Positions 19,901 through 44,794 of a stretch of DNA of 64,000 nucleotides are shown piece after piece. A program made the position numbers and the translations under genes. Each line of letters starts with the position of its first letter. Position 1 is the stretch's first letter. Below the pieces are notes generated by a model. The model worked only from the letters and a program-made list of their open reading frames with translations. It did not search any database and had not been told where the DNA came from. This DNA is from an uncultured Acidobacteriota bacterium (GTDB taxonomy: Bacteria > Acidobacteriota > Vicinamibacteria > Vicinamibacterales > UBA2999), in the NCBI GenBank assembly GCA_963827515.1, contig CAWHBF010000024.1, forward strand, positions 30,902 through 94,901, in the 5' to 3' direction.

Positions 19901-20265
19901 GGCGACCGGCATCGCCGAATCAGCGGGTCAATCAGGTGCTCGAGGACCCGTATGCGGCGGACAAAACGATCGACGCCTACCTGAACCGGGCGGCGTTCGC
20001 GTTGCCGGCGTCGGGGACGCTCGGCGACCACAAGAATGGCAGCATCCAAGGCCCTGGATTCTGGAATGTCGATCTGGCGATCACGAGGCTCCTCCCCATC
20101 ACCGGACGGCAGACACTGGAACTTCGGATCGAGACATTCAATCTTTTCAACACCTTCAACTGGGGCGACCCAGTTACCAACTTCAACGCCGCCACGTTTG
20201 GTCGGATTCTCTCCCAGACTGGCGATCCACGAATCATGCAGTTCGGCGTCAAGTACGGCTTCTGA
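16929..20265 (+). pseudogene. TonB-dependent receptor 1 (CarboxypepD_reg + plug + barrel), about 14 frameshifts
   Basis: AQLNGRVADESGAVLPGVTVTVTQTDTGFTRTVVTEGDGAYVMPNLPTGPYRLEVSLQGFRTY.. ; homologous segments can be followed through all three frames down to ..NLFNTFNWGDP..FGRILSQTGDPRIMQFGVKYGF with a terminal Phe. Confidence 0.8.
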
Positions 20266-20283
20266 GACGGTGCGGAGGATGGA

Positions 20284-23200
20284 ATGAAGCAAGTGATGAG
20301 GCGTGTCGGGATCGTGGCGTTGTTGCTCGCGATGAGCGGCGGATCCGCGTGGGCGCAGGCGACGGCTCAGATGAGCGGCACCGTGCGGGATGAAAGCGGC
20401 GCCGTGCTGCCGGGCGTGACGGTTACCGTGACGCAGACGGACACCGGCTTCACGCGAAGTGTCGTCACCGAAGGCGAAGGATCGTACGTGATGCCGAACC
20501 TCCCGACAGGACCGTACAGGTTGGAGGTGTCGCTGCAGGGGTTCCGGACGTACGTGCAGACCGGCATCGTGCTGCAGGTGGGCGCCGCTCCGACGATCAA
20601 CGCGGAGTTGGCCGTTGGAAATCTCGAGGAGTCGGTGACCGTGGACGCCGCAGCGCCGCTCGTGGACGTGCAGAGCGCCGGTATCTCCGAAGTCGTCGAC
20701 AACGATCGCATCGTGGAGCTGCCGCTTCAGGGGCGCCAGGTCACGAATCTCATCGTGCTCGCCGGTGCGGCGGTCAACACGGGTGACGTCAGCGGCCAGC
20801 GCAACCGTTCGGATTCCGTGGCGATTTCAGTGGCGGGCGGGCTTCGAACGGGTGTGGCCTACGTGCTGGACGGGGCGATGCACAACGACCCGTACGACAA
20901 CACGAACATGCCGTTCCCCTTCCCTGACGCTCTGCAGGAATTCTCGGTGGCGACGAGCGGGCTGTCGGCGCAGAACGGCATGCACTCCGGCGCGTCGGTC
21001 AATGCGGTCACCCGCTCGGGCACCAACGCCTTTCACGGCAACGGGTTCGAGTTCCTCCGCCATAGCGGGTTCAACGCCACCGACCCGTTCGCGCCCGTCG
21101 GGGCGGACGGCGACAGGGTAGACGATGGCCTCGTTCGCAATCAGTTTGGTGGGACGCTGGGTGGACCCATCATTCGAGACAAGCTCTTCTTCTTCGGCGG
21201 GTATCAGGGGACGATCACACGGCAGACGCCGGCGTCGTACGTCGCCTTCGTGCCGACGCCGGCGATGCTCGCCGGCGACTTCACGGGAATCGCGTCGCCG
21301 GCGTGCAACGCCGGCCGGCAGGTGCGCCTTGCGCGCCCCGTTCGTGAACAACCAGATCAATCCCGCCCAGTTCAGTCAGGCCGCGGTGAGTATTTCGAAG
21401 CACCTGCCGACGCCGGTCGATCAGTGCGGCGAGATCAGGTACAGCGTGCCGCTCGACAACAACGACAAGCAGTTCGTGGCCAGGGGCGACTATCAGATGA
21501 GCGCCAACCACTCGCTGTTTGCGCGGTATATCGACGCGTTCGAGAATCGACTGCCGACGTTGTCACGCACGGGCAACATCCTGACCGTGCGGCGTGAATT
21601 CGGCGCCAACAAGCAGGCGCGCGCGCAGGCCACGGCGTTCGGCGACACGCAGGTGTTCGGCGACAACACGGTCAACGGGTTCCGCGTGACCTGGAACCGC
21701 ACGTCCAACCACCTGAACGATCCGCCCGACGAGTTCTTCGATGCACAGGACCTCGGCATCAAGCTTTACTCGTACGTGCCGGGCGTGATCGGGCTGAACG
21801 TGACCAACGGGTTCACCGTCTCTGGCGGGAACTCGGTCAAGGTGCGGGTCGAGAGCCAGGCGTACCAGGTGGCGAACGACCTGTCGATCGTGCGTGGGCG
21901 GCACCAGCTGTCGTTCGGCGGCAACGCCTCGTACTGGGAAGTGGACAGCGAGGACAACGCTCGCGCCGCGGGGGACTTCAACTTCAACGGCCAGGCGACC
22001 GGCATCGGACTGGCCGACTTCCTGACCGGGCAGACGTCGCTCGTGCGGCACGGCGCGCCGGGCGTGCTGCTGAGTGACCAGTGGTACTTCGGTCTCTACG
22101 GTCAGGACAGCTGGCGGGCCACAGATCGCATCACGTTCAACGGTGGTGTGCGCTGGGAGCCCTTCTTCGGAGCGAACTCCAAGAATGGCGCGATCTCGAA
22201 TTTCGTGCTCGACAATTTCCGGCAGGGGATCACGACCCCACGGTTCATCAACGCGCCAGCCGGACTCATCTACCCTGGCGATCCGGGATTCCCTGACGGC
22301 ACCTCGGGTCTGAATGCCCAGTGGCGGAACTTCTCGCCCCGCGTGGGCGTGGCGTGGGACGTCGCCGGCGATGGACGGACCGCCGTTCGTTCCTCGTACG
22401 GGTTGAACTACGACTTCCCGAGTTCGGTGTTCCTCTACATCGCGGCGTCGGCATCCCCGTTCGCGAATCGCGTGGAGCTGAGCGGCGTGCCGTTCGAGGA
22501 TCCCTATCGCAACGTCGGCGGCGACACCCATCCGCTGGCGCCGGATCCCCCAGTCGACGCGCAGTATCCGCCGTTCGGCGCGTATGGTGTGATGGACCCG
22601 GACATCAATTCCACCCGCGTGCAGTCGTGGAATGTCACCCTCGAACGCCAGCTCGGCACGGTCATGGCAGGCCTCGGTCAGCTATCTCGGGAGCTACGCC
22701 GATCGCATGTGGGGTCAGGTGCACATCAATCCAGGCAACTTCATGGGTCTGGGCCCCTGCGTCATCCAGGGCGTTTCGTATCCGTCGTGCACGGTGACCG
22801 GCAACGTCGATCGCCGGCGAACGTTGTATCTCGAGAACCCGACGGAGGGGCAGTGGCTCGGCCCGGTCGTGGAGTATGCGGACGTCGGCGAGCAGTCGTA
22901 TCGCGGCCTGAAGCTGTCGTTCAGGCGCCGCGCCGACCAGGGGGTCAGCCTCAGCGGCAATTACACGCTCTCCCACTGCGAATCGGACACCGAAGTGAGC
23001 GGGAGTTTCAGCCAGTTTGCGAATGGCTACCTGGACCCGAACAACCCGTCGTTCGATCGCGGGAACTGCACGCAGAACAGGCGGCAGATCGGCAACCTTT
23101 CAGTGGGCGCACAGACGCCGGAGTTTGCCAACGCGGTGGTCCGCGCGCTGGCGTCGGACTGGAGATTCTCAGGGATCTTCAGCGCTCGTTCGGGGAGCTG

Positions 23201-23591
23201 GATCACCGTGACCACCGGTCGTGACATCGCCGGCACCGGCATCGCCGCTCAGCGCGTCAATCAGGTGCTCGACGACCCGTACGGCGACAAGAGCCTGAAC
23301 AACTTCCTGAATCCGGCGGCGTTCGCGTACCCGGCGGCGGGGACGCTGGGCGACCATCAAAACGCCAGCATCGAGGGGCCCGGGTTCTGGACCGTGGACC
23401 TGGCGGTATCCAGGCTCATTACGGTGGCATCTTCGCAGAGCCTGGAGTTGCGGATCGAGGCCTTCAACCTGCTCAACAACTTCAACTATGGCCTTCCGAA
23501 TGCAAACCTCGATGCGGGCACGTTCGGCCGGATCACCGCCCAGAGCGGCGAGATGCGGGTGATGCAGTTCGGGCTCAAGTACGGCTTTTAG
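20284..23591 (+). CDS. TonB-dependent receptor 2 (two frameshifts, near 21330 and 22660)
   Basis: Signal peptide + AQMSGTVRDESGAVLPGVTVTVTQTDTGFTRSVV..; ..[15 protein letters not shown]..; ..WQASVSYLGSYADRMWGQV..; ends ..MRVMQFGLKYGF. Paralogue of the receptors at 16929, 41035 and 45658. Confidence 0.85.
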
Positions 23592-23678
23592 AATGGACCT
23601 GCTGTACACTGCATGGCGCAATTGACGCAGGCGAGCAGTCTAGAGGTCCGTACGGGGCGACGCAGGGGAGCGAGCGAT

Positions 23679-24587
23679 ATGCATCAGGGGCGGCTCGGTT
23701 TGTCACAGTGGGGCCGTGTGCCCGTGCTGCTGTTACTCGTCATGTCAGTGAGTCAGCCGGCGTTCGCGCAAGTGGACATCTCGGGTCTCTGGCGTCCGTT
23801 GGCCCGCAACCAGGATGGGAGTGGGATGACGGGCGATTCGGCTGGCCTTCCCCTTAGTTCGGAGGGACAGTCTCGATCGCAGAGCTGGTCACCCGAAGAC
23901 TTCGACGTCGCCGAGTGGGTGTGCCGGCCACACTCATTTGACTACTCGCTCGAGGGGCCTCTCTCGGCGCTGCGTCTGTGGACGGAGCAGGATCGGCCCA
24001 CTCAGAAGATCGTCGCGTACCACGGGCACCTCAACATGATGGAGCAGGAAACCTCCATTTGGATGGATGGCCGCCCCCATCCTCCGGCGAATGCCCCGCA
24101 CACGTGGAGTGGTTTTTCGACTGGGGAGTGGGACGGCGACGTGCTGGTCGTCACGACGACCCACCTCAAGGAAGCGTACATGCGGCGGACGGGCGTGATG
24201 CGCAGCGATCGGGCGACGGTGCGCACGCGGTGGCGGCGCATGGGGAACTATCTGCAAGCGACTTCGATTCTGTACGACCCCGTCCACATGCTGGAACCGT
24301 ACGTGCGAAGCACGATGATGTGGGTCTACGACCCCGGTCTCGCCGAGGCGCCCTATCCGTGCGAGGAGGCCACCGAGACCGCCGTACCGCGGGGCAACAC
24401 ACCGCACTTTCTGCCGGGCCAGAGCCCGTTGCCCGGCCTGAATCCGAACTTGGCGGATCGCTTCGGCACGCCTCACGAAGCGCGGCTGGGCGGGCCCACC
24501 ACGATGTATCCTGAGTACATCGCGAAGATGAAAACCCTTCCCCGCCCGGCGACGGCGGCGGCTCCGGCTGGGGCCGCGGAGAACTAG
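23679..24587 (+). CDS. secreted hypothetical protein, distant relative of the HTEQLH family
   Basis: Signal peptide ..SQPAFA; VDISGLWRP..; ..IWMDGRPHPPANAPHTWSGFSTGEWDGDVLVVTTTHLK.. parallels FMDGRKHP..W.GHS.G.WEGDTLV.DT of the family. ATG 23679 has GGGGAG upstream. Confidence 0.7.
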   Translation: MHQGRLGLSQWGRVPVLLLLVMSVSQPAFAQVDISGLWRPLARNQDGSGMTGDSAGLPLSSEGQSRSQSWSPEDFDVAEWVCRPHSFDYSLEGPLSALRLWTEQDRPTQKIVAYHGHLNMMEQETSIWMDGRPHPPANAPHTWSGFSTGEWDGDVLVVTTTHLKEAYMRRTGVMRSDRATVRTRWRRMGNYLQATSILYDPVHMLEPYVRSTMMWVYDPGLAEAPYPCEEATETAVPRGNTPHFLPGQSPLPGLNPNLADRFGTPHEARLGGPTTMYPEYIAKMKTLPRPATAAAPAGAAEN

Positions 24588-25661: not shown

Positions 25662-26051
25662 ATGGTTCGTACTATCTTGCTGATCATCGCCGGCATCACC
25701 CTTCTGGCAGGGGGCGATCGGGTGTTCGCGCACCACTCGTTTTCGGCGACGTACGATTCGGCCAACAAGGTCGAAATCGAAGGGGTGGTGAAGGAGTTCG
25801 TCTGGCGCAATCCGCATTCGTTCATGAGGATTGACGTCACCGACAAGGCAGGAGAGGTCAAGACGTGGGCGTTGGAGTGGGGGTCGACGAACGACTTGAC
25901 GCAGGCGCAGATCACCCGCACGACGCTCAAGCCCGGCGACAAGATCATCGTGACCGGCGAGGCCGCACGCGATCAATCGTCGCTTCGACTGCTCATCGTG
26001 AGCGTGAATCGGCCGAGTGACGGATTCTCGTGGCGGGGAAGGGTCGAGTAA
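25662..26051 (+). CDS. DUF6152-like small secreted protein, copy 2
   Basis: ..GGDRVFA / HHSFSATYD..VEIEGVVKEFVWRNPH... AAAGGAG lies 8 nt before ATG 25662. Confidence 0.8.
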   Translation: MVRTILLIIAGITLLAGGDRVFAHHSFSATYDSANKVEIEGVVKEFVWRNPHSFMRIDVTDKAGEVKTWALEWGSTNDLTQAQITRTTLKPGDKIIVTGEAARDQSSLRLLIVSVNRPSDGFSWRGRVE

Positions 26052-26053
26052 GC

Positions 26054-26815
26054 ATGCGTTCTCTGTGGCTGCCGCTGTGTGCGGTTCTCCTCGTCGGCGT
26101 TCCCGGTACTGCTGACGCTCAAGGGCGTGGGCGTGCCGGCGGCGGGCCACCACAAACCGGACGTGCCGCTGCTCCCAGAGACCTGACCGGGACCTGGGTG
26201 TCGGTGGTCACGGAGCACTGGCACTTGCGGATGCTCGTGCCGCCGAAGGGCGAATTCGCGATGCTGCCGCTCAATCCCGAGGCCCGAACGCTCGCTGGGG
26301 CATGGGATCCGGCCAAGGAGCCAGCGGCCGAGGCGTGTCGTTCGTATGGCGCGGCAGCCATCATGCGTGTACCCGGACGTCTCCACATCCAGTGGGTGGA
26401 CGACAACACGCTGCAGATGGACATCGACTCGGGCACACAGACTCGGATGCTGCGGTTTGGTGCGATGCCGCCGGCCAATCAGCCGCTCGAATGGCAGGGC
26501 TACTCGGTGGCGAACTGGGAAGCGCTGGGCGCGCGCGGCCGCGGCGCCATGCCCACGCAGCTCAGGGTCAGGACGAGCCGGATGCGGCCGGGTTACTTGC
26601 GCAAGAATGGCGTGCCCTATAGTGAGAACGCCACGCTCGAGGAGTACTACGATCGATTCACTGAACCAAACGGCGACGACTGGCTGGTGGTGACCAGCAT
26701 CGTGACCGATGCGAAATATCTGACTCAGCCGTACGTGACGACGAACCATTTCAGGAAGATTCCGGACAAACAGGGATGGGATCCGACGCCGTGTCGGGCC
26801 GACCAGGCCCGCTGA
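26054..26815 (+). CDS. secreted hypothetical protein (second distant relative of the HTEQLH family)
   Basis: Signal peptide MRSLWLPLCAVLLVGVPGTADA; RDLTGTWVSV.. (same D-[IL]-[ST]-G-x-W motif); C-terminal ..DDWLVVTSIVTDAKYLTQPYVTT.. parallels ..NYLQATSILYDPVHMLEPYVRST.. of the 23679 protein. Confidence 0.65.
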   Translation: MRSLWLPLCAVLLVGVPGTADAQGRGRAGGGPPQTGRAAAPRDLTGTWVSVVTEHWHLRMLVPPKGEFAMLPLNPEARTLAGAWDPAKEPAAEACRSYGAAAIMRVPGRLHIQWVDDNTLQMDIDSGTQTRMLRFGAMPPANQPLEWQGYSVANWEALGARGRGAMPTQLRVRTSRMRPGYLRKNGVPYSENATLEEYYDRFTEPNGDDWLVVTSIVTDAKYLTQPYVTTNHFRKIPDKQGWDPTPCRADQAR

Positions 26816-29802: not shown

Positions 29803-30192
29803 ATGAGAATGAAGCGTGGAGTTCTGATCGCTGGCCTCGGTCTTTTCTGTCTGTCGGCGCCCCTCGCCGCCCATCACTCGTGGACAGCCGACTACGACGG
29901 CGGCAAGCCGGTCACCGTCAAGGGCGTGGTGACGAAGGTCGAATGGACCAACCCCCACACCCACTTCTACGTCGAGGCCAAGGACGAGAAGGGGACGGTC
30001 ACGATGTGGAACTTCGAGATGGCGAGCACGCTGTCGCTGGAACGCGGAGGCTGGACCCGGAAGACGCTTCCCGTTGGTGCGGAAGTCACGGTCGGAGGTT
30101 TTGGCGGCAGGGCCGTGCTCACCAGGGCCATCGCGGGTTCCATTACCACTGCCGACGGCAAGGCGCTGTTCGTCGGGAAACCGGGTCAATAG
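29803..30192 (+). CDS. DUF6152-like small secreted protein, copy 3
   Basis: MRMKRGVLIAGLGLFCLSAPLAA / HHSWTADYD..VTVKGVVTKVEWTNPH... AGGAGG precedes ATG 29803. Confidence 0.85.
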   Translation: MRMKRGVLIAGLGLFCLSAPLAAHHSWTADYDGGKPVTVKGVVTKVEWTNPHTHFYVEAKDEKGTVTMWNFEMASTLSLERGGWTRKTLPVGAEVTVGGFGGRAVLTRAIAGSITTADGKALFVGKPGQ

Positions 30193-30244: not shown

Positions 30245-31045
30245 GTGAGAAGAGGGCTCGTCGTCTCGATCGCAGTCATATGTCTGACCGTGCCGTTCCT
30301 CGCCGCATCGCAGGAGCTCGGTCGTCGTATCGGAGGCGCCAACGGGCCGCCTGCGGCCCCGCCGACGCCCGACAAACCGGCCCCGCGTCTTACCGACGGC
30401 AAGATAGATCTATCAGGTGTATGGACCGACGGCGGCGGGCAGACGATTGACCGCCTGTTGAAGCCGGGCGAGTTGGACACCATTCTGCTACCGAACACCA
30501 AGAAGCTGATGGAATCGCGGAACGACGGACAGGATCCCTACAACTACTGCCTGCCTGGCGGGCCGCTGCGGATCACCGGGGGCTTTGCCTGGCGGTTCAT
30601 TCAGCACCCGACGACCAACGCCACGCACATTTTCATGTTGCAGGAAGGGAACGCCCACACCTACCGCCAGATTTTCATGGACGGTCGCAAGCACCCCGAA
30701 GATCCGAGTCCGACGTGGTACGGTCATTCCATCGGCCGATGGGAAGGCGACACGCTTGTGATTGACACCATCGGTCTCAACACCAAGTTCTGGCTCGACG
30801 GGAGCGGCATCCAGCATACCGAACAGCTACACATGGTCGAGCGATGGACTCGAACGAACTACACGACGCTCCGCCGCGATGTGACGTTCGAGGATCCGGG
30901 CGCGTTCACCAAGCCGTTCACCGTGACCTACACCGCGAGGCTCTCGGAGCCTGGCAGCGAGATCATGGAATACATCTGCATCGAGAACAATCAGTATGGG
31001 CTCGCACAGGGTCACGGAGATCCGAGCGTCGTCGCCCCGAAGTAA
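30245..31045 (+). CDS. HTEQLH-family secreted protein, copy 1 (uncharacterised family)
   Basis: GTG start after GGAGGAGG; signal peptide; APRLTDGKIDLSGVW; CLPGGPLR; NAHTYRQIFMDGRKHPEDPSPTWYGHSIGRWEGDTLVIDTIG; QHTEQLHMVERWTR; DPGAFTKP; MEYICIENN. Confidence 0.8.
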   Translation: MRRGLVVSIAVICLTVPFLAASQELGRRIGGANGPPAAPPTPDKPAPRLTDGKIDLSGVWTDGGGQTIDRLLKPGELDTILLPNTKKLMESRNDGQDPYNYCLPGGPLRITGGFAWRFIQHPTTNATHIFMLQEGNAHTYRQIFMDGRKHPEDPSPTWYGHSIGRWEGDTLVIDTIGLNTKFWLDGSGIQHTEQLHMVERWTRTNYTTLRRDVTFEDPGAFTKPFTVTYTARLSEPGSEIMEYICIENNQYGLAQGHGDPSVVAPK

Positions 31046-31212: not shown

Positions 31213-32043
31213 GTGCGTAGATTTCTTGTCGTGTCCGTGTTCGCGGCGGGACTTGCCCTGGCTGCGTTCGGGCATCTGCAGGCGCAAGGCGGCGTCGGCC
31301 AGATTCAGGTCGGTGGCAGCCCGGTTGTTCCAGACTCCGAAGTCACGAGCAAACCGGTTCCTCGCCTGCCCGACGGCACCGTGGATATCACCGGCCCCTG
31401 GGTGGGTGGCGGCTCGAATGGCAATATCGAGCGCGATGGCGGGTTGAAGCCAGGTGAGCTGCCGCTGCTGCCGTGGGCCAAGGAGCTGATGTCCAAGCGT
31501 CTCGAGAAGGACGAGCCCTATACAGCCTGCTTGCCGATGAGCGTGCCCCGCGTGAACCCATATCCGTGGAAGTTCGCGCTCTCCTACACCTCGAAGGGAC
31601 TCTCGCACATCTACGTGCTGCACGAGACGGGTGATGCGGGTGCTCATCGCGTGGTCTATATGGACGGACGGCCCCATCCGCCAGATCCGATCCCGACATG
31701 GTGGGGGCATTCGACCGGCAAGTTCGAAAAGGACACCCTGGTCATCGACACCGTCGGCTACAACGACAAGTTCTGGTTCGACAGCCGCGGAACGCCACAC
31801 ACGGAACAGCTGCACACGGTCGAGCGGTGGACGCGCATCAACTACGGACGAATCACCAATGACTTCCTCCTCGACGACCCGGGGGCATTTTCGAAGCCGG
31901 TCAATTTGAAGTTCACCGGCAGGCTGCTGCGGCCGGATCTGAAGACCGGAGGCGGTGACCTGATGGAGTTCATCTGTCTCGAAGGCAACGAGTATGGTGC
32001 GGCCGCCGGCTTCGTGCCTGGCCAGGGAACGGCCATCAAGTGA
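31213..32043 (+). CDS. HTEQLH-family secreted protein, copy 2
   Basis: VPRLPDGTVDITGPW; CLPMSVPR; VVYMDGRPHPPDPIPTWWGHSTGKFEKDTLVIDTVGYNDKFWFD; PHTEQLHTVERWTR; MEFICLEGN. Confidence 0.8.
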   Translation: MRRFLVVSVFAAGLALAAFGHLQAQGGVGQIQVGGSPVVPDSEVTSKPVPRLPDGTVDITGPWVGGGSNGNIERDGGLKPGELPLLPWAKELMSKRLEKDEPYTACLPMSVPRVNPYPWKFALSYTSKGLSHIYVLHETGDAGAHRVVYMDGRPHPPDPIPTWWGHSTGKFEKDTLVIDTVGYNDKFWFDSRGTPHTEQLHTVERWTRINYGRITNDFLLDDPGAFSKPVNLKFTGRLLRPDLKTGGGDLMEFICLEGNEYGAAAGFVPGQGTAIK

Positions 32044-32102: not shown

Positions 32103-32528
32103 ATGAGAACGAAACTTGGAATCCTGGCGGCGACGATTGGCCTCGTCTGCGTGGCGGTGCCGGCCATCGCGCATCACGGGTTCGATACGGAGTACGACGC
32201 GAAGAAGAAGTTCAAGCTGCAGGGCGTTGTGTCGCAGGTGCTGTGGACCAATCCCCACATGCGCGTCCACGTGGACGTGACCGATGCGGCCGGGAAGGTG
32301 ACGACCTACAACATGGAGATCACCAGTCCCAACTCGGTCCAGCGTCAGGGCTGGGGCCGCAACAGCCTCCTGCCGGGTGAGAAAGTCGTCTTCGAAGGGT
32401 ACGGCGGCAAGGTTGTCGAGAGCAGAGGTTCGCTGCTTTCGATCGCGAAGCTCGATGCGCCGGACAAGCCGCTCTTCGTCCAGGGCGGGCCTGAAGCCGC
32501 TGCCGAAGGCTTCCCCGGTCAGCGGTAG
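32103..32528 (+). CDS. DUF6152-like small secreted protein, copy 4
   Basis: MRTKLGILAATIGLVCVAVPAIA / HHGFDTEYD..FKLQGVVSQVLWTNPH... Confidence 0.85.
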   Translation: MRTKLGILAATIGLVCVAVPAIAHHGFDTEYDAKKKFKLQGVVSQVLWTNPHMRVHVDVTDAAGKVTTYNMEITSPNSVQRQGWGRNSLLPGEKVVFEGYGGKVVESRGSLLSIAKLDAPDKPLFVQGGPEAAAEGFPGQR

Positions 32529-35989: not shown

Positions 35990-36379
35990 ATGAGAACGAA
36001 GCTTTCGGTGCTGCTGGCCGGCGTTGCCTTGGTGGGTCTGACGATGCCGGTCGTGGCACATCATGCCGTGGGCGCCGAGTACGACGAAGCCAAGGTCGTC
36101 AAACTGACAGGTGTCGTATCGAAGGTGGAATGGACCAATCCCCATGCGCGCATCTACTTCGACGTCACCCAGCCGGACGGGACCAAGGTCACCTGGAACG
36201 TGGAACTGACCGCGAGAAGCGCACTGGTCAGACAGGGGTGGACGGCCAACTCCCTGAAGATCGGCGAAACGGTGACGGTCGAGGGCAGCTTGGCGAGGTC
36301 GGGCGTGAGCGGGGTCAACGCCAGAAACGTCCTGAACGCCGACGGCAAGAGAGTGTACGGCGGCGACAACGTCCAGTAG
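35990..36379 (+). CDS. DUF6152-like small secreted protein, copy 5
   Basis: MRTKLSVLLAGVALVGLTMPVVA / HHAVGAEYD..VKLTGVVSKVEWTNPH... GGAGGA precedes the ATG. Confidence 0.85.
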   Translation: MRTKLSVLLAGVALVGLTMPVVAHHAVGAEYDEAKVVKLTGVVSKVEWTNPHARIYFDVTQPDGTKVTWNVELTARSALVRQGWTANSLKIGETVTVEGSLARSGVSGVNARNVLNADGKRVYGGDNVQ

Positions 36380-36423: not shown

Positions 36424-37248
36424 GTGAGAAAGCTACTCCTCGCCTCTGCGATGACCGCGGCGCTCCTCCCGCTGCTGGTGCAGTCGGCGTCGACGCAGGC
36501 CGGTCCTGAAGCAGGAAAGGTCGCGGCCGAGCGGCGAGCCGGACCGGAGAAGGGCCCGATCCCCAGGCATCCTGATGGGTCCGTGAACCTGATGGACGGG
36601 GTGTGGGTCGGCGGCGGACCTGTCCAGGACCTGGAGGCGCAGGGCGGTTTGAAGCCGGGCGAACTCGACGCCCTGATGCTGCCATGGGCAAAGGCCCTGA
36701 TGGCCACACGGGATGAAACCCAGGAACCGCACAACGCTTGCCTGCCGATGGGCGTTCCGCGTGTGACACCGTTCCCGTATCGGTTCGTACAGAACTACAC
36801 CCACAAGCCCGCCACGCACATGTTCATCCTCCACGAGGGGAACATCCATACGTACCGGCAGATATTCATGGATGGACGCAAGCACCCGGCGGAGCTTGAT
36901 TCGAGCTGGCTCGGGCATTCGATCGGTCACTGGGAGAAGGACACGCTCGTCATCGACACGGTCGGCTACAACGACAAGTTCTGGTTTGACCGCCGCGGCC
37001 ATCCGCATACAGAGCAGTTGCACACAATCGAGCGGTGGACCCGGCTGAATCTCGGGCAGATGGAGAACAAGTTCACCCTCGATGACCCGGGCGCGTATTC
37101 GAAGCCGATTACGATGACCTTCATGGCGACGAAGATGCCGCCCCAGGACGAGCTTCTGGAATACATCTGCCAGGAGAACAATCAGTACGGCGCAGCAACG
37201 ATCCCTGGCTACAGCGGCCCGAAGATGGGGAACCAGCCACAGAAGTAA
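36424..37248 (+). CDS. HTEQLH-family secreted protein, copy 3
   Basis: GTG 36424 after CAGGAGAAGG; IPRHPDGSVNLMDGVW; CLPMGVPR; NIHTYRQIFMDGRKHPAELDSSWLGHSIGHWEKDTLVIDTVGYNDKFWFD; PHTEQLHTIERWTR; LEYICQENNQYG. The 443-aa ORF start at 35917 is an artefact overlapping copy 5. Confidence 0.8.
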   Translation: MRKLLLASAMTAALLPLLVQSASTQAGPEAGKVAAERRAGPEKGPIPRHPDGSVNLMDGVWVGGGPVQDLEAQGGLKPGELDALMLPWAKALMATRDETQEPHNACLPMGVPRVTPFPYRFVQNYTHKPATHMFILHEGNIHTYRQIFMDGRKHPAELDSSWLGHSIGHWEKDTLVIDTVGYNDKFWFDRRGHPHTEQLHTIERWTRLNLGQMENKFTLDDPGAYSKPITMTFMATKMPPQDELLEYICQENNQYGAATIPGYSGPKMGNQPQK

Positions 37249-37597
37249 GCATCAAGACGTGGAGCTTGGGACTGGGACCCCTTGGTCCGCGAGTCCGGTA
37301 GCCGGGATGGCTGCCATAACTTACTGCCAAGATTTCCCCCAGTGTGGGCGGGTTTTTTCGGCCTCGGCGTGAACTGAATTCAACCATCCGTAGCATTCCC
37401 GGACGAACGGATGGATTCTTCGCCGAATTGAGGGGGTGCCTCTCGGACAATCGGCGTGTAAGTCCGCGGCACAGTTCTGGCTACACATTCTGGGTTTTTA
37501 GGTACAATGAGCGGCTATTTGAATTCCATTCCCGCCTCGGGTCGGGAGATGTTCATCCGCCTTGATGGGCGGGTGTCATCACAAGGAGGCTCTTAAG

Positions 37598-40563
37598 ATG
37601 ACGCGTGTTATGCGATTCCTTTTTCTCGCGTGCGGCCTTTTGGCGGTGCCAGCTGCGGTGTTCGCGCAGGAAGCGGTGCTCACCGGCACTGTGACCGATT
37701 CTACCGGCGGCGTGCTGCCGGGTGTCACCGTCGTGGCGGTGAACGACGCGACCGGAAACCGATACGAAGCCGTGACGGACGAGGGCGGTATCTATCGGAT
37801 CCCAGTGCGCGTTGGCGCCTTCACGATTACGGCGGAACTCTCTGGTTTCGCGACGGCGAACCGTACCGGCGTGCAACTACTGGTTGGCCAGACCGCCAAC
37901 GTGAATTTGCAATTGGCTCCTTCGACTGTTCAGGAGACCGTCACCGTCACCGGCGAGGCGCCTCTCCTCAACGTGTCGACGTCGAGCCTTGGGGGCAACA
38001 TCGATCCGCAGCAGGTGGAGGAGTTGCCGGTGCAGGGTCGTAACTGGATGGGTCTGGCGCTGCTCGCCCCTGGAAGTCGTACGGTCTCGGGCAACGCTCA
38101 GGCGCCCCTTCCCGATCGCAACAACGGCGAGGTGCGCGAGTTCCAGCTCAACATGGACGGACAGCAGATTTCGTCCGAGCTCGGCACCGGCAACCAGCCG
38201 AAGTTCAGCCAGGACTCTATCGCGGAGTTCCAGTTCATCTCGAACCGGTTCGACGCCACGCAGGGGCGGTCGAGCGGTGTGCAGGTGAACGTGATCACGA
38301 AGTCGGGCACCAACTCGCTGTCCGGGTTGTTCCGCACGAATTTCCAGAGCGACGACGTTCAACGCCGAAGACCCTGTGGTGGGCCGCAAGCTGCCGATCA
38401 GCAACCAGCAGGTACAGCACGGCGCTCGGCGGACCGATTCTGCTCAACAAGCTGCACTACTATGGCAATTTCGAGTACGAGCGCGCGCCGCTGGCCAGCG
38501 TGTGGACGACGCCGTACCCCGCGTTCAACATCGAGCTCAACGGGAAGTTCTCGCGCAAGATTGCCGGCGCGCGCGATCGACTACCAGGAGTCACGAGCAA
38601 CACGCGCCTCATGGGCCGCGTCTCGGGATCGCAGAGCTACACCCCCTTCGGCGGCGGGTCGGCAACCGCGCACCCGGCGTCCACGATCGACACCGACGAC
38701 CGGAACCGTGAGTATCTTGGGATCGTTGACGCAGGTGCTGAGCAACCGGGCCGTGAACGAGATCAAGGGTGGATACTCCCACTACGGATTCGAAAACAAG
38801 ACCCTCGTGAATTGGTCGAAGCACTGGCAGGCCTCGAATGGGATCACGAACGGCTACCCGCGCATGACGTTCACCGGCTTCTCCTTCAATGCCAACGCGA
38901 ATGCTCCGCGTCATCGCGACCAGAAGGTCACGCAGATTCGAGATGACTTCACGTTCTCGTACGAGGCGCGCGGCCGTCACGACCTGCGGGCGGGCTTCGA
39001 GTTCGTCGATCACTACGAGGACAGCCTGAACTGCAACCAGTGCGGCGGGAACGATCGACGCACGCGGGACACCAGCTGGCCTGCCGCCCATTCCGACGCC
39101 GGCGCAGATGGAGGCGTGGTTCCCGGATCCATGGAACGCGGACACCTGGAACTTTGCAGCGATCTCTCCCTGGATACGGACCTACACGATCGGCATCGGG
39201 GAGTTCCCGAACCAGTACCATCAGCCGAAGTACGGTGCCTGGGCGCAGGACGACTGGCGGATCACCGACAGTCTCACACTGAACCTCGGCCTGCGTTACG
39301 ACTTGAGCCAGAACTCGTTTGCGAACGACCTCGGGCTCGAGTACAAGGCCGGTCAGCCACCCTTCTATGCGCCGGGCCGACCGAACGACACCAACAACAT
39401 CCAGCCGCGCCTCGGGTTTGCCTATTCGCTGAACGACCGCACGGTGATCCGCGGGGGATCTGGGCTCTACTATTCCGACGCGCTGACGGTCGATGCGTTC
39501 TGGCCCAAGTACAACACCCAGCTGCTGCGAGACTGCAGTACACCAACGACGGCCGGGCGAACTTCGGTGCGGATCCGCTCAACGGCGCACCGTTGCCGAC
39601 CTACGATCAGGCGCAGACGCAGCTGTGCAACTCGGCGGCGCAGGCGGCGAACTTCGCCGCGTGGCGCGCGAGCCAACTTCGCCGGCACGGCGCCCTGCAT
39701 CCTCAACGCGCTCCAGGAGATGCCGGGGCCGGATGAATACATGGTGATGGCGCAGAGCTGGAACTCGTCCATCGGCGTTCAGCGGCAGTTCGGCTAAGGT
39801 GATGTCGCGTCGAGGTGGACTACATCTACACCAAGGGCACGGACGAGAAGGACACGATCCCCAACGTGAACCTGGCGTACGACCCGGCGACAGGGGTGAA
39901 TTATCCGTTCAACAACGCCAACCGAGCTCGGCTGCCCTGGCCGGATATGGGCGTCGTCTCGATGATTCCGCACAACACGCGCTCTGGACTGCGGTCGCTG
40001 CAGACGGCCTTCTCGCAAGCGCATGAGCAGCCGGTGGCAGGCATCGGCGACCTATACGCTCTCGTGGCTCTATAGCGCCGAGAACCAGCCGTTCCAGGGT
40101 CTGGACATCGTGCCGTTCGAGGTGGCACCAGACCTGGGCAACGAATACACCCTCGCGGGTGACGATCAGCGTCACCGCGCGGTGTTCAACGGCATCTGGG
40201 AGGTCGGCAAAGGCTTCCAGCTGAGCGGCCTCCACTACTTCGGCGCCGGGATTCGTGCGGCGAACGAGTACGGAGGCGACCTGCGCGTGCTGGGTGCGAC
40301 CGGATCGGCGCGGCTGCGTCCGAACGGCAGCCTCGTCGAGCGCAACAGCTACGTCCAGCCGTTCCAGAACAAGACGGACATCCGAGCGCAGCAGCGGGTG
40401 CCGCTCGGTGGGCGTGCGGGCATCGACCTCATCGCCGAAGTGTTCAACGTGTTCAATCGGCCGAACTTCATCGAGACGGTGCAGGAGAGTCAGCGCAAAC
40501 TACGGCAAGCCGGCGTCGGGTCAGTACCGCACGGCACAGCTCGGCTTCCGTCTGACCTTCTGA
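37598..40563 (+). pseudogene. TonB-dependent receptor 3 (different subtype from the other four), about 10 frameshifts
   Basis: Signal peptide + AVLTGTVTDSTGGVLPGVTVVAVNDATGNRYEAVTDEGGIYRIP..(CarboxypepD_reg); ..VEELPVQGRNWMGL.. (plug). Barrel segments are spread over three frames. Ends ..AEVFNVFNRPNF.. / ..YRTAQLGFRLTF. Confidence 0.75.
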
Positions 40564-40569
40564 TCGATA

Positions 40570-40632
40570 CCCGGCAGGTAACGGCCTGCCGGGTGTCCGA
40601 CTCTACTGCGCGGGGGCGTGAGCGCCCCCGCG
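40570..40632 (+). terminator. two consecutive GC-rich hairpins after receptor 3
   Basis: cccggcagg-taacgg-cctgccggg (40570-40593, 9-bp stem) and cgcgggggcg-tgag-cgcccccgcg (40609-40632, 10-bp stem). No clear U-tract. Confidence 0.5.
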
Positions 40633-40709
40633 TCGTCGCCACGTTCACTCCTCTTTCCTTGACCACGGACCGTCGCGGCTGACGGTCGATAGACGACCCC
40701 CTTTGGGCG

Positions 40710-40803: not shown

Positions 40804-40959
40804 CTAGACCGCTTTTCGATTCGGCGTAGCTGAGTGCGGAGGCTTCCGCCTTCGCGTAAAGCTTCGGCGGACCGCCGTAGCCTTGGCGGAGGCGGTTAGC
40901 CTCCGCGGACACGCGCACGCTGAAGCGTGCGCTCTACGGAGAAACGCAAATCGCTCTCT
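40804..40959. repeat. REP/MITE-like nested-palindrome element, copy B (long form)
   Basis: CTAG at both tips. Imperfect terminal inverted repeats: ctagaccgcttttcgattcggcgtag versus the reverse complement of the right end, ctagagcgatttgcgtttctccgtag. Internal hairpins gcggaggcttccgcc.., gcgcacgctgaagcgtgcgc. Confidence 0.8.
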
Positions 40960-41034
40960 AGCGTTCCCTACGCGCGAGAGCACTGGCGCACTGTTCGAAT
41001 CGTTCCTGGGCTGACCATATGCGAGGAGGATGGA

Positions 41035-44000
41035 ATGAAGCGCTCCCTGTGGAGTTTCTCGATCGTCGCGTTGAGCCTGCTGTTGTCGTGTGGTGTCGCG
41101 TGGGCGCAGGGAACGGCGCAGCTCAACGGCCGCGTGGCTGATGAGAGTGGTGCGGTGCTCCCGGGAGTCACCGTGACCGCCACTCAAACCGAAACCGGAG
41201 CCGCGCGGACCGCCGTGACGGACGAGACCGGTTCGTGGGTCATGCCGAACCTTCCGCTCGGCCCGTACAGACTCGAGATGTCGCTGCAGGGATTCAGAAC
41301 CTACGTCCAGACCGGCATCGTGCTGCAGGTCAACGCCAACCCGGTGATCAACGCCGCGCTGGGTCTGGGCAACCTCGAAGAGACGGTGTCGGTCGAGGCT
41401 GCGGCCCCCCTTGTCGACGTCCGCAGCGCCGGCATCAGCCAGGTGGTGGAGCAAGAGCAGATCGTGCAGCTCCCGCTGCAGGGGCGTAACGTCACGGACC
41501 TGATCATGCTCGCCGGGTCAGCCGTGAACACGGGCCGGGTGCTCGCCAATTTGAATCGTGCCGACGGTGTGGCCATCGCGGTCGCAGGCGGCCTGAGAAC
41601 AGGTGTGGCCTATACGCTGGACGGAGCGCTCAACAGCGATTTCTACGACAACACCAACCTGCCGTTTCCTTTCCCTGACGCGCTTCAGGAGTTCAGCGTC
41701 GCCACGAGCGGCCAGTCCGCGCAGAACGGGATGCACTCGGCTGCATCGGTCAACGCGGTGACGAAGTCCGGCACGAACAATCTGCACGGCAATGTGTTCG
41801 AGTTCTTCCGCGACAGCCAGTTCAACGCGCCCGCCTACTTCGCCCCTGTCGGACCAGACGGGAAGAAGAGCGGCGACGGCCTCAACAGGAACCAGTTCGG
41901 CGGGACGCTGGGTGGACCGATCGTTCGAGATAAGCTCTTCGTCTTCGGAGCGTATCAGCGCACGCGTGCTCGTCAGCTGACGAATGACAACGTCGCGTTC
42001 GTCCCCACGGCGGCCATGATGGCCGGCGACTTCACCGCGGCCGCTTCACCCGCGTGCAACGCGGGCCGACAGGTCGCGCTCCGTGCGCCGTTCGTCAACA
42101 ACCGGGCCGATCCGGCGCTCTTCAGTACGGCCGCGGTGAAGATGCTGGCCTCCGGGTTCATTCCATCATCGACCGATCCGTGCGGAGAGATCCGGTTCAG
42201 CGTGCCGCTCGACGACAACAACGGACAGGGCGTCGTCAGGATGGACTATCAGATGAACGCCAACCACTCCATCTTCGGCCGCTACCTCAATCACATCGAG
42301 TCACGTCCCGCCACCTTGGAGCGGACGCACAACATCCTGGCGATTCGAAACATCTTCGGTCCGAAGAGCCGCAAGAAGGCCGAGACGCTCGCGTTCGGCG
42401 ACACGCTGGTGTTCGGCACGAGCACCGTCAACGCGATTCGCGCGACCTACGTACGGACATCGACGCGGTCCAACTCGCCGGCGGACGAATTTTTCGACGC
42501 TCCCTCCCTCGGAATCCCCATTTACACCTACGTCCCTGGAGTGATGGCGCTCAGCGTGACCAACGGATTCGCGTTCTCGGGCGGGAGCTCAGTGGGTGGG
42601 GTCGTGGACAACCGGTCGTATCAGATTCAGGACGACTACTCGAGAATCTGGGGTCGGCACCAGGTGTCGATCGGCGCGAACGTGGCCTACGCGACGCTCG
42701 ACTCTTTCGACTACGCGAACGCCGCGGGAAATTTTGCGCTCAACGGCAGCGTGACCGGTATCGGCCTGGCCGACTTCATGGTTGGCCAAGTCTCCACGTT
42801 AACGCACGGGACGCCGAGCATCCTGCACAACCATCAGTGGTACATCGGGACGTACGTGCAGGATACGTTGAGGGCGTCGAATCGCCTGACGCTCAATCTG
42901 GGTATCCGGTGGGAGCCGTACTTCGGGACCTGGTCGGACAATGGCGCGATCTCCAACTTCTCTCCAGACAACTTCAGCAAGGGGGTCAAGAGCGCCCAGT
43001 TCCTGAACGCCCCGGCCGGACTCCTCTACCCTGGTGACGCGGGTTTCCCCGAGGGCAACACGGGGCTGAACAAGCAGTGGAAGAACTTCTCCCCGCGCCT
43101 GGGTCTGGCCTGGGACGTTCGCGGCGACGGTCGGCTGGCCGTGCGCACGTCCTACGCGATCAATTACGACATTCCAACGGCGATCTTCCAGCAGGTACCG
43201 GCGTCCGGCGCCCCGTTTGGCAATCGCCTGGCCTTGACGCAGGCGGGAAACATCCCGCTGGACGACCCCTATCGAAACTATCCGGGCGCGCACGTGCTGC
43301 CGGTGCCAGTTCCGCCGCCGGCGGATATCGTGTTCCCCAACCAGGGATCGTACGCAGCCATCGATCCGGACATCAACTCGACCCGTGGTCAGTCGTGGAA
43401 CGTGACCGTCGAGAAGCAGCTCGGCGCCACCTGGCAGGTTGCGGCTAGCTATCTGGGTACCTACCTTGACCGCATCTGGGGGCAGGACGCGCTGAATCCA
43501 GGCGTGTTCATGGGGCTCGGCCCGTGTACGCTCCGCGGCGTGAACTATTCTGTCTGCTCGACCGCCGCGAATACCGACGCGCGGCGCGTGTTCTCACAGG
43601 TGAGCGCCGAGGCGGCGCAGAAGTATTCGTATGTGTCCGAGTACCAGGCCACCGGCACGCAGACCTACCGCGGGCTGAAGCTCTCGTTCCAACGCCGCAC
43701 GGCGCAGGGCCTCAGCCTTGGCGGGAACTTCACCGTGTCGCACTGCGAGACCGACACACCGGTGACGGGTAACTTCGTCCAGTTCCAGAACACCTGGCTG
43801 AAGCCGGGCGACCCGTCGTACGATCGCGGTAATTGCCCCTACAATCAGCGCCTCATCTCGAACTGGACCGCTGCGTATCTCACACCCGAGTTTTCCAACG
43901 ATGTGCTGCGAGCCGTTGCCTCTGACTGGCGCGTCTCGGGCATCGTCACCGCGAACTCGGGTAACTGGTTGACGGTGACCACCACCTCGGATCTGGCGTT

Positions 44001-44386: not shown

Positions 44387-44794
44387 ATGAACATGTTGAA
44401 GGTGTTCGGCGTGGTCACGGTGGCGGTCGGGGTGCTCCTGCAGCCGGCGCTCTCGTTGGCCCATCACTCGTTCGCGGCGGAGTTCGATGGCAGCAAGTGC
44501 CGTGACTTCACCGGAGTCCTGACGAAGCTCGAGTGGGCGAACCCCCACGGGTTCTTCTATGTGGACGTCAAGGACGCGAGCGGCAAGGTCGAGAACTGGT
44601 CGTTTCAGACCTATGCGCTCATCACGCTCAGGCGCGCCGGGAACGATCGGCAGCTGTTTCTCGACCACATCGGCAAGGAAGTGTGGGTGAGGGGATGTCT
44701 CGCCCGAAATGGCAGAGAGCACTACGCCGCCGCTGGATCGTTGAAGTTTGCGTCGGATGGCATCCTTCGCCAGATGGGCCAACTGCAGGACTAG
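44387..44794 (+). CDS. DUF6152-like small secreted protein, copy 6 (most divergent)
   Basis: ..LLQPALSLA / HHSFAAEFD..FTGVLTKLEWANPH... Confidence 0.8.
   Translation: MNMLKVFGVVTVAVGVLLQPALSLAHHSFAAEFDGSKCRDFTGVLTKLEWANPHGFFYVDVKDASGKVENWSFQTYALITLRRAGNDRQLFLDHIGKEVWVRGCLARNGREHYAAAGSLKFASDGILRQMGQLQD

What the first reader, a model, noticed from the sequence alone, without database searches (positions are those of the whole stretch)
29803..30192. DUF6152-like proteins: predicted mature N-terminus His-His plus invariant W-x-N-P-H, a possible histidine-brace-type metal site
All eight copies place A-x-A directly before HH, for example LAA/HHSW, AIA/HHGF, VVA/HHAV, SLA/HHSF, ALA/HHSF. Signal peptidase I cleavage would therefore leave His1-His2 as the free N-terminus.

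About 25 residues later every copy has G-[VT]-[VL]-x3-[VLDE]-W-x-N-P-H. Residues invariant across all eight are HH, the D of E-[YF]-D, G, W and NPH.

Inference: a free N-terminal histidine combined with a second conserved histidine is the arrangement used by copper histidine-brace proteins (LPMOs, CopC/PmoD-like proteins). Next to outer-membrane receptors this suggests a periplasmic metal or metallophore-handling protein. The family name DUF6152 is from memory and needs HMM confirmation.
Basis: partly seen in the sequence, partly recalled or inferred. Interest (0 to 1): 0.75.

Follow-up and report, generated by a model that had tools for sequence, protein, structure and literature searches.

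The report
Secreted His-His OB-fold proteins with partner
The window carries eight copies of an uncharacterised secreted protein (DUF6152) that should begin with two histidines once its signal peptide is removed; it has a small barrel (OB) fold and is nearly always encoded next to a second unnamed protein, so a new kind of metal-binding pair is plausible but unproven.

Summary
All eight ORFs score as Pfam DUF6152. One copy, at 50155-50571, is frameshifted. Each has an Ala at -1 directly before His-His and a W-x-N-P-H exactly 24 residues later. The pattern holds across the family:
- In 126 full-length representatives, -1 is Ala in 118.
- In 31 secondary gene copies not selected for the motif, HH and the NPH histidine are present wherever the region is present.

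- **Fold:** it is an OB fold (AF2 pLDDT 89.7), not an LPMO or CopC fold.
- **Main partner:** this is an unannotated secreted family I call P, roughly 250-280 aa with a calycin-like barrel. It lies on the same strand within 400 bp for 81 of 111 DUF6152 domains. In six cases it is fused, always in the order signal peptide, HH, D, P.
- **Outer-membrane receptors:** TonB-receptor-like barrels are adjacent in only about 14% of cases.
- **Tandem D-D proteins:** no internal domain (0 of 9) keeps HH together with NPH.

This supports an N-terminus-dependent histidine site, most likely metal binding. I could not measure the geometry, and the metal is unknown. No metal-homeostasis genes are nearby, and no paper mentions the family.

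The parts
29803..30192 (+). D3, the focal DUF6152 gene (129 aa). Signal peptide MRMKRGVLIAGLGLFCLSAPLAA, predicted mature N-terminus HHSW, and WTNPH at mature residues 25-29.
   Evidence: 87.6 bits; OB-fold model, pLDDT 89.7.
16432..16836 (+). D1, DUF6152 copy (AAA|HHSF), followed by a TonB-receptor-like gene.
25662..26051 (+). D2, DUF6152 copy (VFA|HHSF), preceded by a metallo-beta-lactamase-fold gene (24589-25641).
32103..32528 (+). D4, DUF6152 copy (AIA|HHGF), directly downstream of partner P-d.
35990..36379 (+). D5, DUF6152 copy (VVA|HHAV).
44387..44794 (+). D6, DUF6152 copy (SLA|HHSF), 29 bp after T4 and 18 bp before P-f.
48987..49400 (+). D7, DUF6152 copy (ALA|HHSF), 16 bp after T5; its stop overlaps the start of P-g.
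50155..50571 (+). D8, DUF6152 copy with two frameshifts (signal peptide from 50160 and the C-terminus are in other frames).
23613..24587 (+). P-a, divergent member of the partner family (no Pfam match).
26030..26815 (+). P-b, divergent partner copy downstream of D2; it lacks the conserved His residues of the main subfamily.
30245..31045 (+). P-c, partner of the focal D3 (GTG start with GGAGGAGG upstream).
31213..32043 (+). P-d, partner copy (276 aa) used for the structure model. It has an N-terminal helical part followed by an 8-stranded beta region.
36424..37248 (+). P-e, partner copy downstream of D5.
44813..45643 (+). P-f, partner copy downstream of D6.
49397..50128 (+). P-g, partner copy downstream of D7.
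50732..51385 (+). P-h, partner copy downstream of D8; its signal peptide (about 50623) is in another frame.
40927..44358 (+). T4, intact TonB-dependent-receptor-like outer-membrane protein (CarboxypepD_reg + OMP_b-brl_4), heading a T-D-P cassette.
   Evidence: 599 bits to PF25183.
45658..48970 (+). T5, the same kind of outer-membrane protein, split into two ORFs (45658-46422 and 46529-48970), heading a second T-D-P cassette.
16833..23591 (+). T1 and T2, two further receptor-like genes (about 16833-20265 and 20284-23591), each broken over several frames.
37562..40682 (+). T3, receptor-like gene in fragments (37562-39736, 40023-40682).

Best explanation
DUF6152 (D) is a Sec-exported, roughly 105-residue OB-fold protein. 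Signal peptidase I cuts after an invariant Ala, so the mature chain starts His1-His2.

I infer that the free N-terminal histidine (or the His-His pair) together with the invariant His29 of the N-P-H loop between strands 1 and 2 forms a nitrogen/oxygen-donor metal site. This would belong to the N-terminal-histidine (histidine-brace-like) class. The donor set suits divalent Cu, Ni, Zn or Co rather than Cu(I).

D does not work alone. It forms a two-protein module with an unannotated secreted partner P, which has a calycin-like beta-barrel with its own conserved His, Asp and Glu residues and a Cys pair. The module duplicates as a unit and is often placed behind a TonB-dependent-receptor-like outer-membrane barrel (T-D-P cassettes).

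The most likely role is to hold a metal ion in the periplasm. That ion would either be handed to P, used together with P, or received from the transporter.

Shown here: family membership, signal peptide, conservation, OB fold, the D-P linkage, and the dependence of the motif on N-terminal position. Inferred: actual cleavage, metal binding, which metal, and hand-off.
For: **Cleavage site and conservation**
- All 8 copies match PF19649.
- In 126 full-length 50%-identity cluster representatives, -1 is Ala in 118 and -3 is A, L or V in 111. The signal peptide has a median length of 23, with a basic n-region and a hydrophobic core. HH always follows directly, and W sits 24 residues on in 142 of 144.
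- Ala|HH is the only SPase-compatible position shared by all eight window copies.
- In 31 secondary copies in genome loci, which were not selected for the motif, plus the 8 window copies, H1, H2, P28 and H29 are present wherever the region is present. D9 and W25 vary.

**Dependence on N-terminal position**
- About 384 of 389 N-terminal domains keep both HH and H29.
- Of 9 internal second domains in tandem D-D proteins, none keeps HH together with N-P-H. H29 is replaced in 7. The structural W46 and E49 are mostly kept.
- Six independent D-P fusions all have the order signal peptide, HH, D, P.

**Fold and composition**
- The AF2 model has pLDDT 89.7 and pTM 0.83, with b1-b2-b3-helix-b4-b5 topology.
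- Foldseek returns only OB folds such as SSB, PriB and LysRS.
- Composition is Cys 0.1% and Met 1.5%, with no His-rich tails, so only N/O donors are available.

**Partner and context**
- 81 of 111 D domains have a same-strand P within 400 bp.
- D and P pairwise identities correlate at r = 0.70, against a permutation maximum of 0.23.
- One representative fuses D to a Metal_resist (PF13801) domain at 32.7 bits, cutoff 29.2.

**Precedent**
- Secreted DUF families with a conserved post-signal-peptide His1 (DUF4198 next to TonB receptors, DUF6702 with His1/His28/His32, Ang-1 and Ang-2) all proved to be metal binders (PMC12537917).
Against: - No coordinates were available, so I could not test whether His1, His2 and His29 converge. 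The first ten residues of the model have a mean pLDDT of only 75.
- The window and the related loci contain no recognisable metal-homeostasis genes. There is no P-type ATPase, RND efflux system, Znu or Nik transporter, or CopCD. I found no AT-rich Fur/Zur-like palindrome in the promoter regions.
- Eight diverged copies in 35 kb, and many more per genome, is unusual for a metallochaperone. It looks more like a substrate-diversified system.
- Receptor adjacency is only 16 of 111 domains.
- The 150 representatives and 80 seed loci are biased towards motif-bearing members. The remaining roughly 16,000 clusters were not inspected.
- Cleavage was judged with the -3/-1 rule, not with SignalP or by experiment.
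Confidence: 0.45

Rival explanations
1. The D-P pair is a substrate-capture or processing accessory of the acidobacterial TonB-receptor-like transporters, functionally comparable to a binding-protein partner. In this reading the HH...NPH site binds or acts on an organic ligand, for example by acid-base chemistry or hydrogen bonding, rather than on a metal ion. The diverged P barrels would supply specificity.
For: - T-D-P cassettes recur in tandem in the window and in loci L001, L002, L009, L015, L016, L035 and L036.
- The C-terminal half of P resembles streptavidin, UnaG and lipocalin-type ligand barrels.
- D and P are strongly expanded and diverged: paralogues share 32-48% identity for D and 21-51% for P.
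- Neighbouring genes are catabolic or transport genes: MBL fold, PQQ dehydrogenase, MFS, amidohydrolase and cytochrome c.
- No metal genes are nearby.
Against: - It gives no reason why the histidines must sit at the extreme mature N-terminus, or why H29 is lost when the domain is internal.
- Only 14% of D domains have a detected receptor within 1.5 kb.
- The Foldseek support for P is weak (E about 8e-3, TM 0.45 on the target).
Confidence: 0.2
2. D is the catalytic copper centre of an oxidative enzyme, working like an LPMO but on an OB-fold scaffold. P would be its substrate-binding or activating subunit.
For: - It has the same N-terminal His logic as the best explanation.
- LPMO-like gene expansion is seen.
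- Redox neighbours recur, namely c-type cytochromes and PQQ dehydrogenases.
- Histidine-brace proteins act as oxygenases or peroxygenases (PMC10952591 abstract).
Against: - There is no evidence for copper specifically, for a flat substrate-binding surface, or for any activity.
- Three of the four signal-strapped families tested in PMC12537917 were non-enzymatic binders.
- The fold is unrelated to any known LPMO.
Confidence: 0.12
3. The A|HHSF N-terminus is a processing, sorting or protein-docking tag, for example recognition by the partner P or by an export or anchoring machine, and has no ligand-binding role.
For: - Positions +3 (Ser in 99 of 126) and +4 (Phe in 112 of 126) are also highly conserved, so the whole N-terminal peptide is constrained, not just the histidines.
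- Linkage and fusion with P are tight.
Against: - It does not explain the invariant N-P-H loop 24 residues away, or its specific loss in internal domains.
- In D-P fusions the tag would be unnecessary for docking, yet it is retained.
- I know of no such N-terminal His-His sorting signal.
Confidence: 0.1
4. D is a nucleic-acid-binding OB-fold protein or nuclease, as suggested by the JGI label 'DNA/RNA endonuclease YhcR with UshA esterase domain' on some homologues.
For: - The JGI names appear.
- There are weak Pfam hits to tRNA_anti-codon and tRNA_anti_2 OB domains.
- Foldseek hits are to SSB and PriB.
Against: - The protein is secreted, about 105 residues long, and has no nuclease or esterase domain.
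- The label reflects only OB-fold similarity.
- The conserved residues are histidines at the N-terminus, not an aromatic and basic ssDNA-binding surface.
- The Foldseek E-values are marginal (1.6e-3 or worse).
Confidence: 0.03

Closest known systems
Copper histidine-brace proteins (LPMOs AA9/AA10, CopC, the PmoB CuB site, X325/Bim1)
   Same: A signal peptide is cleaved immediately before a conserved His, so that its amino group and imidazole are available. A second conserved His lies elsewhere in the chain. The proteins are secreted or periplasmic. (Definition from the PMC10952591 abstract.)
   Different: - The fold is an OB barrel, not the Ig/FnIII-like sandwich of LPMOs or the cupredoxin-like CopC barrel (folds as I recall them).
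- D has an invariant His-His doublet, not a single His1.
- D has an obligate calycin-like partner.
- Copper binding and T-shaped geometry were not tested.
N-terminal-His 'signal-strapped' families DUF4198, DUF6702, Ang-1 and Ang-2 (Franco Cairo et al. 2025, PMC12537917)
   Same: - These are small secreted DUF proteins with a conserved His1 after the signal peptide plus further conserved His residues.
- DUF4198 sits next to TonB receptors and binds Ni.
- The proposed DUF6702 site is His1/His28/His32, close to the His1/His29 spacing seen here.
   Different: - DUF6152 is not mentioned in that paper or its supplements.
- Those families are beta-sandwiches, whereas this one is an OB fold.
- His1 conservation is 65-79% in DUF6702 and DUF4198, but about 100% here.
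- None of those families has the P partner.
CusF, the periplasmic Cu(I)/Ag(I) OB-fold metallochaperone
   Same: Both are small periplasmic OB-fold proteins. A low-confidence hhalign alignment places the near-invariant W46 and E49 of D opposite CusF W44 and M47 (the CusF sequence and site residues are from my memory).
   Different: - There is no significant homology (hhalign probability 8.8%).
- The His-Met-Met/Trp Cu(I) site is absent, and D has almost no Met or Cys.
- CusF is encoded with the CusCBA efflux system, not with a P-type partner.
YcnI (DUF1775), a copper-binding domain in the Bacillus ycn copper-uptake operon
   Same: An N-terminal His exposed by processing binds copper in a small extracytoplasmic beta-protein that works with a neighbouring gene product (titles and abstracts; site details from my memory).
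   Different: The fold, partner (YcnJ, CopCD-type) and taxa differ, and there is no sequence relationship.
Generic OB folds (SSB, PriB, LysRS anticodon-binding domain)
   Same: These are the best structural matches (TM 0.5-0.7), and there are weak Pfam hits to tRNA_anti-codon, DUF4131 and TOBE.
   Different: They are cytoplasmic nucleic-acid binders. They have no signal peptide and no HH or NPH motifs. The similarity is at fold level only (E 1.6e-3 or worse).

Membership tests
Pfam PF19649 DUF6152 | HMM score above the gathering threshold (27 bits) | tested here: met
   All 8 copies score 62.9-100.7 bits. All 115 members of alignment A3 match.
OB-fold superfamily | Five-stranded closed beta-barrel with a helix between strands 3 and 4 | tested here: met
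   AF2 model with pLDDT 89.7 and elements E8-24, E31-37, E43-49, H53-58, E71-79, E85-93. All top Foldseek hits are OB folds.
Histidine-brace metalloproteins (functional class) | Histidine at position 1 of the mature protein after signal-peptide cleavage | tested here: met
   Met at the level of sequence prediction only. The Ala(-1)|HH site obeys the -3/-1 rule in all eight copies and in 118 of 126 representatives. No SignalP run or experiment was done.
Histidine-brace metalloproteins (functional class) | A second histidine positioned to coordinate the same ion as the His1 NH2 and N-delta (T-shaped 3N geometry) | not testable with these tools
   A candidate exists: His29 is invariant and is lost in internal domains. 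Model coordinates cannot be read, and the N-terminus has lower confidence.
Histidine-brace metalloproteins (functional class) | Binds copper | not testable with these tools
   This requires expression with a native N-terminus followed by EPR, ITC or ICP-MS.
LPMO (AA9/AA10 etc.) and CopC/PmoD families | Homology and fold: Ig/FnIII-like sandwich, or the CopC beta-barrel Pfam family | tested here: not met
   No Pfam hit other than DUF6152 and weak OB families. The fold is OB.
CusF family | Sequence homology and the His/Met/Met/Trp Cu(I) site | tested here: not met
   hhalign probability is 8.8%. There is no CusF_Ec Pfam hit. Met content is 1.5% with no conserved Met.
TonB-receptor-associated periplasmic metal binders (DUF4198-like context) | Consistent adjacency to a TonB-dependent receptor and metal regulators | tested here: inconclusive
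   A receptor-like gene lies within 1.5 kb for 16 of 111 domains. This is a lower bound, because a single phmmer query was used. No NikR, Fur or Zur genes or operator sites were found.
Calycin / streptavidin-like barrels (for partner P) | Eight-stranded up-and-down beta-barrel | tested here: inconclusive
   The AF2 model has pLDDT 84.3 with 8 strands between residues 119 and 239. The best Foldseek hits are streptavidin, UnaG and SAHS at E 8e-3 to 4e-2 and TM about 0.45 on the target. There is no Pfam, NCBIfam or PDB sequence hit.

The most novel reading that the evidence does not exclude
DUF6152 and its unnamed partner may form a previously unrecognised and very large two-component periplasmic metallo-system: about 16,000 50%-identity clusters for D and more than 7,900 detected homologues for P. 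It would combine an OB-fold histidine-brace-type centre, a new scaffold for this chemistry, with a substrate-specific calycin-like barrel. The system would have expanded together with the TonB-receptor-like transporters of Acidobacteriota and would act catalytically, for example in oxidative processing of imported substrates, rather than as a simple metal carrier.
Probability: 0.12. Interest if true: 0.85.

Novelty: new variant of a known kind. Interest (0 to 1): 0.62.

Why it matters
If the mature His-His end binds a metal, DUF6152 would add an OB-fold scaffold to the N-terminal-histidine metalloproteins. It would also assign a function to two large families of soil-bacterial proteins that currently have none. 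The tight D-P pairing is a concrete, testable two-protein system: D and P are sometimes fused, and they often sit behind the very abundant but poorly understood TonB-receptor-like barrels of Acidobacteriota. A handful of expression and metal-binding experiments could settle it.

Tried and rejected
- **Direct-coupling analysis.** I ran it on 359 D sequences (Meff 211) to see whether N-terminal residues contact the NPH loop. The top couplings were gap artefacts and recovered no strand pairing, so it was uninformative.
- **Model coordinates.** I looked for them in the sandbox to measure His-His distances, but they are not provided.
- **PDB sequence searches.** The D and P profiles gave only chance hits: PapC usher at E 1.6 and YebC at E 0.14.
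- **Metalloregulator operators.** I searched eleven intergenic regions for AT-rich palindromes and found none. Only sigma-70-like TTGACA promoters turned up.
- **CopD relationship.** A lenient Pfam scan of the two membrane proteins at 28093-29526 showed only DUF6644 and DUF2214.
- **Structure prediction with locus sequences.** I repeated it with database homologues.
- **Literature.** Searches for DUF6152, PF19649, 'histidine brace' + OB-fold, and 'N-terminal histidine' + periplasmic + OB-fold returned 0 papers.
- **Nuclease reading.** I rejected the 'YhcR endonuclease' interpretation. The label is an OB-fold artefact.

Full report
**1. The observation**

A six-frame scan finds exactly eight ORFs with W-x-N-P-H, all on the + strand. 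Their coordinates are 16432-16836, 25662-26051, 29803-30192 (the focal copy), 32103-32528, 35990-36379, 44387-44794, 48987-49400 and 50155-50571.

In their alignment the invariant columns are Ala(-1), His1, His2, Asp9, Gly18, Trp25, Asn27, Pro28, His29 and three more glycines (mature numbering of the focal copy).

Some details need correcting:
- The -3 residue is A in three copies, V in two, and L, S and C in one each, so 'A-x-A' is literal in only three copies.
- E-[YF]-D is not universal.
- The eighth copy has its signal peptide and its C-terminus in other reading frames.

The start at 29803 is supported by an AGGAGG Shine-Dalgarno sequence and by 129-aa homologues.

**2. Conservation across the family**

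A profile search of 1.84 billion cluster representatives gives 16,439 clusters at E <= 1e-3. Among 126 full-length representatives:
- position -1 is Ala in 118, and -3 is A, L or V in 111;
- the leader has a median length of 23 residues, with basic residues and a hydrophobic core;
- HH follows immediately, then Ser (99) and Phe (112).

The spacing from HH to W is 24 residues in 142 of 144.

Those representatives, and the 80 genome loci found with an AHH pattern, are biased towards the motif. I therefore looked at 31 secondary copies in the same loci plus the eight window copies. H1, H2, P28 and H29 are present wherever the region is present, whereas D9 and W25 vary.

A rule-based enumeration shows that Ala|HH is the only SPase I-compatible position shared by all eight window copies, although five copies also have other permitted sites. 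There is no lipobox Cys and no twin-arginine motif. Exposure of His-His as the mature N-terminus is therefore well supported by sequence, but it has not been shown experimentally.

**3. Fold**

An AlphaFold2 model of the mature focal protein, built with 115 aligned sequences, has mean pLDDT 89.7 and pTM 0.83. Its elements run in the order strand 8-24, strand 31-37, strand 43-49, helix 53-58, strand 71-79, strand 85-93. That is OB-fold topology.

Foldseek against the PDB returns only OB folds, such as Rim1/SSB, PriB and the LysRS anticodon domain. TM scores are 0.5-0.7 and E-values are 1.6e-3 or worse. Weak Pfam hits go to DUF4131, tRNA_anti-codon, DUF5666 and TOBE. This explains the misleading JGI label 'YhcR endonuclease'.

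The N-P-H motif lies in the loop between strands 1 and 2, and W46 and E49 lie on strand 3. The protein is therefore not related to LPMOs, CopC or PmoD. A profile comparison with CusF, the known periplasmic OB-fold copper chaperone (sequence from my memory), is not significant, with probability 8.8%.

The first ten residues of the model have a mean pLDDT of 75, and I could not obtain coordinates.

**4. Evidence that the site depends on the free N-terminus**

- **Tandem proteins.** Several representatives are tandem D-D proteins. Their first domain, directly after the signal peptide, keeps HH and NPH. None of the 9 genuine internal domains keeps both. H29 is replaced by R, N, I, A or S in 7. The two that keep H29 have lost the HH segment or changed it to HQ, and have altered N27 or P28. 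The structural W46 and E49 mostly survive. About 384 of 389 N-terminal domains keep the full set.
- **Fusions.** Six D-P fusion ORFs from different genomes all have the order signal peptide, HH, D, P, and never P then D.

Both patterns are what a site using the alpha-amino group or imidazole of His1 predicts. A purely internal ligand site or a generic structural motif would explain them less well.

The composition (Cys 0.1%, Met 1.5%, no His-rich tails) leaves only N/O donors. That points away from a CusF-like Cu(I) site and towards Cu(II), Ni(II), Zn(II) or Co(II).

**5.

Directly beside the D genes lie eight copies of a secreted protein of about 240-325 aa that has no Pfam or NCBIfam match. 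It has more than 7,900 database homologues, all labelled hypothetical and none with a Pfam domain.

Evidence that D and P belong together:
- In 80 genome loci from Acidobacteriota (Vicinamibacterales, Bryobacterales, Terriglobia) and some Gammaproteobacteria, 81 of 111 D domains have a same-strand P within 400 bp: 64 downstream and 17 upstream.
- Pairwise identities of D and of its adjacent P correlate at r = 0.70, against a maximum of 0.23 in 999 permutations. The pair duplicates and diverges as a unit.

The AF2 model of P (pLDDT 84.3) has an N-terminal helical part and eight strands between residues 119 and 239. Foldseek weakly matches streptavidin, UnaG, SAHS and lipocalin-type barrels at E 8e-3 to 4e-2. 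P has an invariant Cys pair and, in the main subfamily, near-invariant His155, His166, His196 and His201 plus several Asp and Glu.

**6. Outer-membrane receptors and other context**

The window holds five CarboxypepD_reg + OMP_b-brl_4 (TonB-receptor-like) genes. Two of them head tight T-D-P cassettes, with gaps of 29 and 18 bp in one, and 16 bp followed by a 4-bp overlap in the other. The same cassette recurs in tandem in other genomes.

However, a receptor was detected within 1.5 kb of only 16 of 111 D domains. This is a lower bound, because a single query was used.

Other recurrent neighbours are MBL-fold proteins (13 of 81 loci), PQQ dehydrogenases (10), MFS transporters (9), and c-type cytochromes and amidohydrolases (6 each). 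I found no metal-homeostasis genes, metalloregulators or operator-like palindromes. One representative fuses D to a Metal_resist (PF13801) domain and sits near a PQQ dehydrogenase. This is a single hint.

**7. Interpretation**

The best-supported reading (about 0.45) is that D is a periplasmic OB-fold protein whose processed His-His N-terminus and loop His29 form an N-terminal-histidine metal site, and that D works with P.

The closest precedent comes from the signal-strapping study (PMC12537917). In it, four secreted families chosen only for a conserved post-signal-peptide His1 all bound metals. One of them, DUF4198, sits next to TonB receptors, and another has a His1/His28/His32 site. DUF6152 is absent from that paper and its supplements and from the searchable literature.

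Two things argue against a simple chaperone role: the lack of metal genes nearby, and the heavy paralogy. Both fit better with a substrate-diversified system in which D contributes a constant site and P contributes specificity. That system could be non-metal (rival 1) or catalytic (rival 2 and the novel case).

**8. Verdict**

The new information is the OB fold, the obligate and unannotated partner family with natural fusions, and the position-dependent loss of the motif. This counts as a new variant of a known kind (N-terminal-histidine secreted metal sites), pending biochemistry.

Noticed in passing
window 16833-23591, 37562-40682, 45658-48970, 50155-50731: Four of the five TonB-receptor-like genes are split over two or more reading frames. 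DUF6152 copy 8 and the partner gene after it have their signal peptides in a different frame from the rest of the protein. This looks like either many indel errors in the assembly or a decaying gene array.
   Followed up: partly
window 23613-24587, 26030-26815, 30245-31045, 31213-32043, 36424-37248, 44813-45643, 49397-50128, 50732-51385: These are eight copies of a large secreted protein family with more than 7,900 homologues and no Pfam, NCBIfam or PDB relative. It has an invariant Cys pair, conserved DGRxHP, WxGHS and PHTEQLH motifs, and a predicted calycin-like barrel. It would merit its own family definition.
   Followed up: partly
window 9864-16324: A gene run encodes DUF6513 + pterin-binding (dihydropteroate-synthase-like), a PabB-like chorismate-binding enzyme, a glutamine amidotransferase, a class IV aminotransferase, DUF447 and a GHMP-kinase-like protein. 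It resembles a p-aminobenzoate / methanopterin-type pterin biosynthesis cluster, which would be unusual for an acidobacterium.
   Followed up: no
window 26868-27941 and 34634-35857: Two secreted c-type cytochromes (Cytochrome_CBB3 + DUF11, and CytoC_RC-like + DUF6544) are interleaved with the D-P modules. A CytoC_RC-like cytochrome recurs in 6 of the related loci, and PQQ dehydrogenases in 10.
   Followed up: partly
window 28093-29526: Two adjacent membrane proteins (DUF6644, and DUF2214/DUF6644) lie immediately upstream of the focal gene. A lenient scan showed no CopD relationship.
   Followed up: partly
window ~16385-16420, ~29675-29710, 35885-35925, 40710-40745: Sigma-70-like TTGACA-N17-TAxxxT promoters lie upstream of D1, D3, D5 and T4. 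The one before D5 has a duplicated GCTTTGACAAG. No shared operator-like palindrome was seen.
   Followed up: no
window 1634-2749 (-): An IS110-family transposase (DEDD_Tnp_IS110 + Transposase_20) lies near the left end of the window.
   Followed up: no
protein P0217 (JGI metagenome 3300047160, 4.5-kb contig): This is a natural fusion of DUF6152 (N-terminal, HH after the signal peptide) with a Metal_resist/LTXXQ (CpxP/Spy/ZraP-like) domain. It sits next to a 349-aa unannotated protein and a PQQ dehydrogenase.
   Followed up: partly
window 51407-52429, 53551-54579, 60284-63163: A LarA-like (lactate racemase family) gene, a TRAP DctP solute-binding protein, and a fused [2Fe-2S]/molybdopterin xanthine-dehydrogenase-family enzyme lie to the right of the array. 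I see no evident link to the finding.
   Followed up: no
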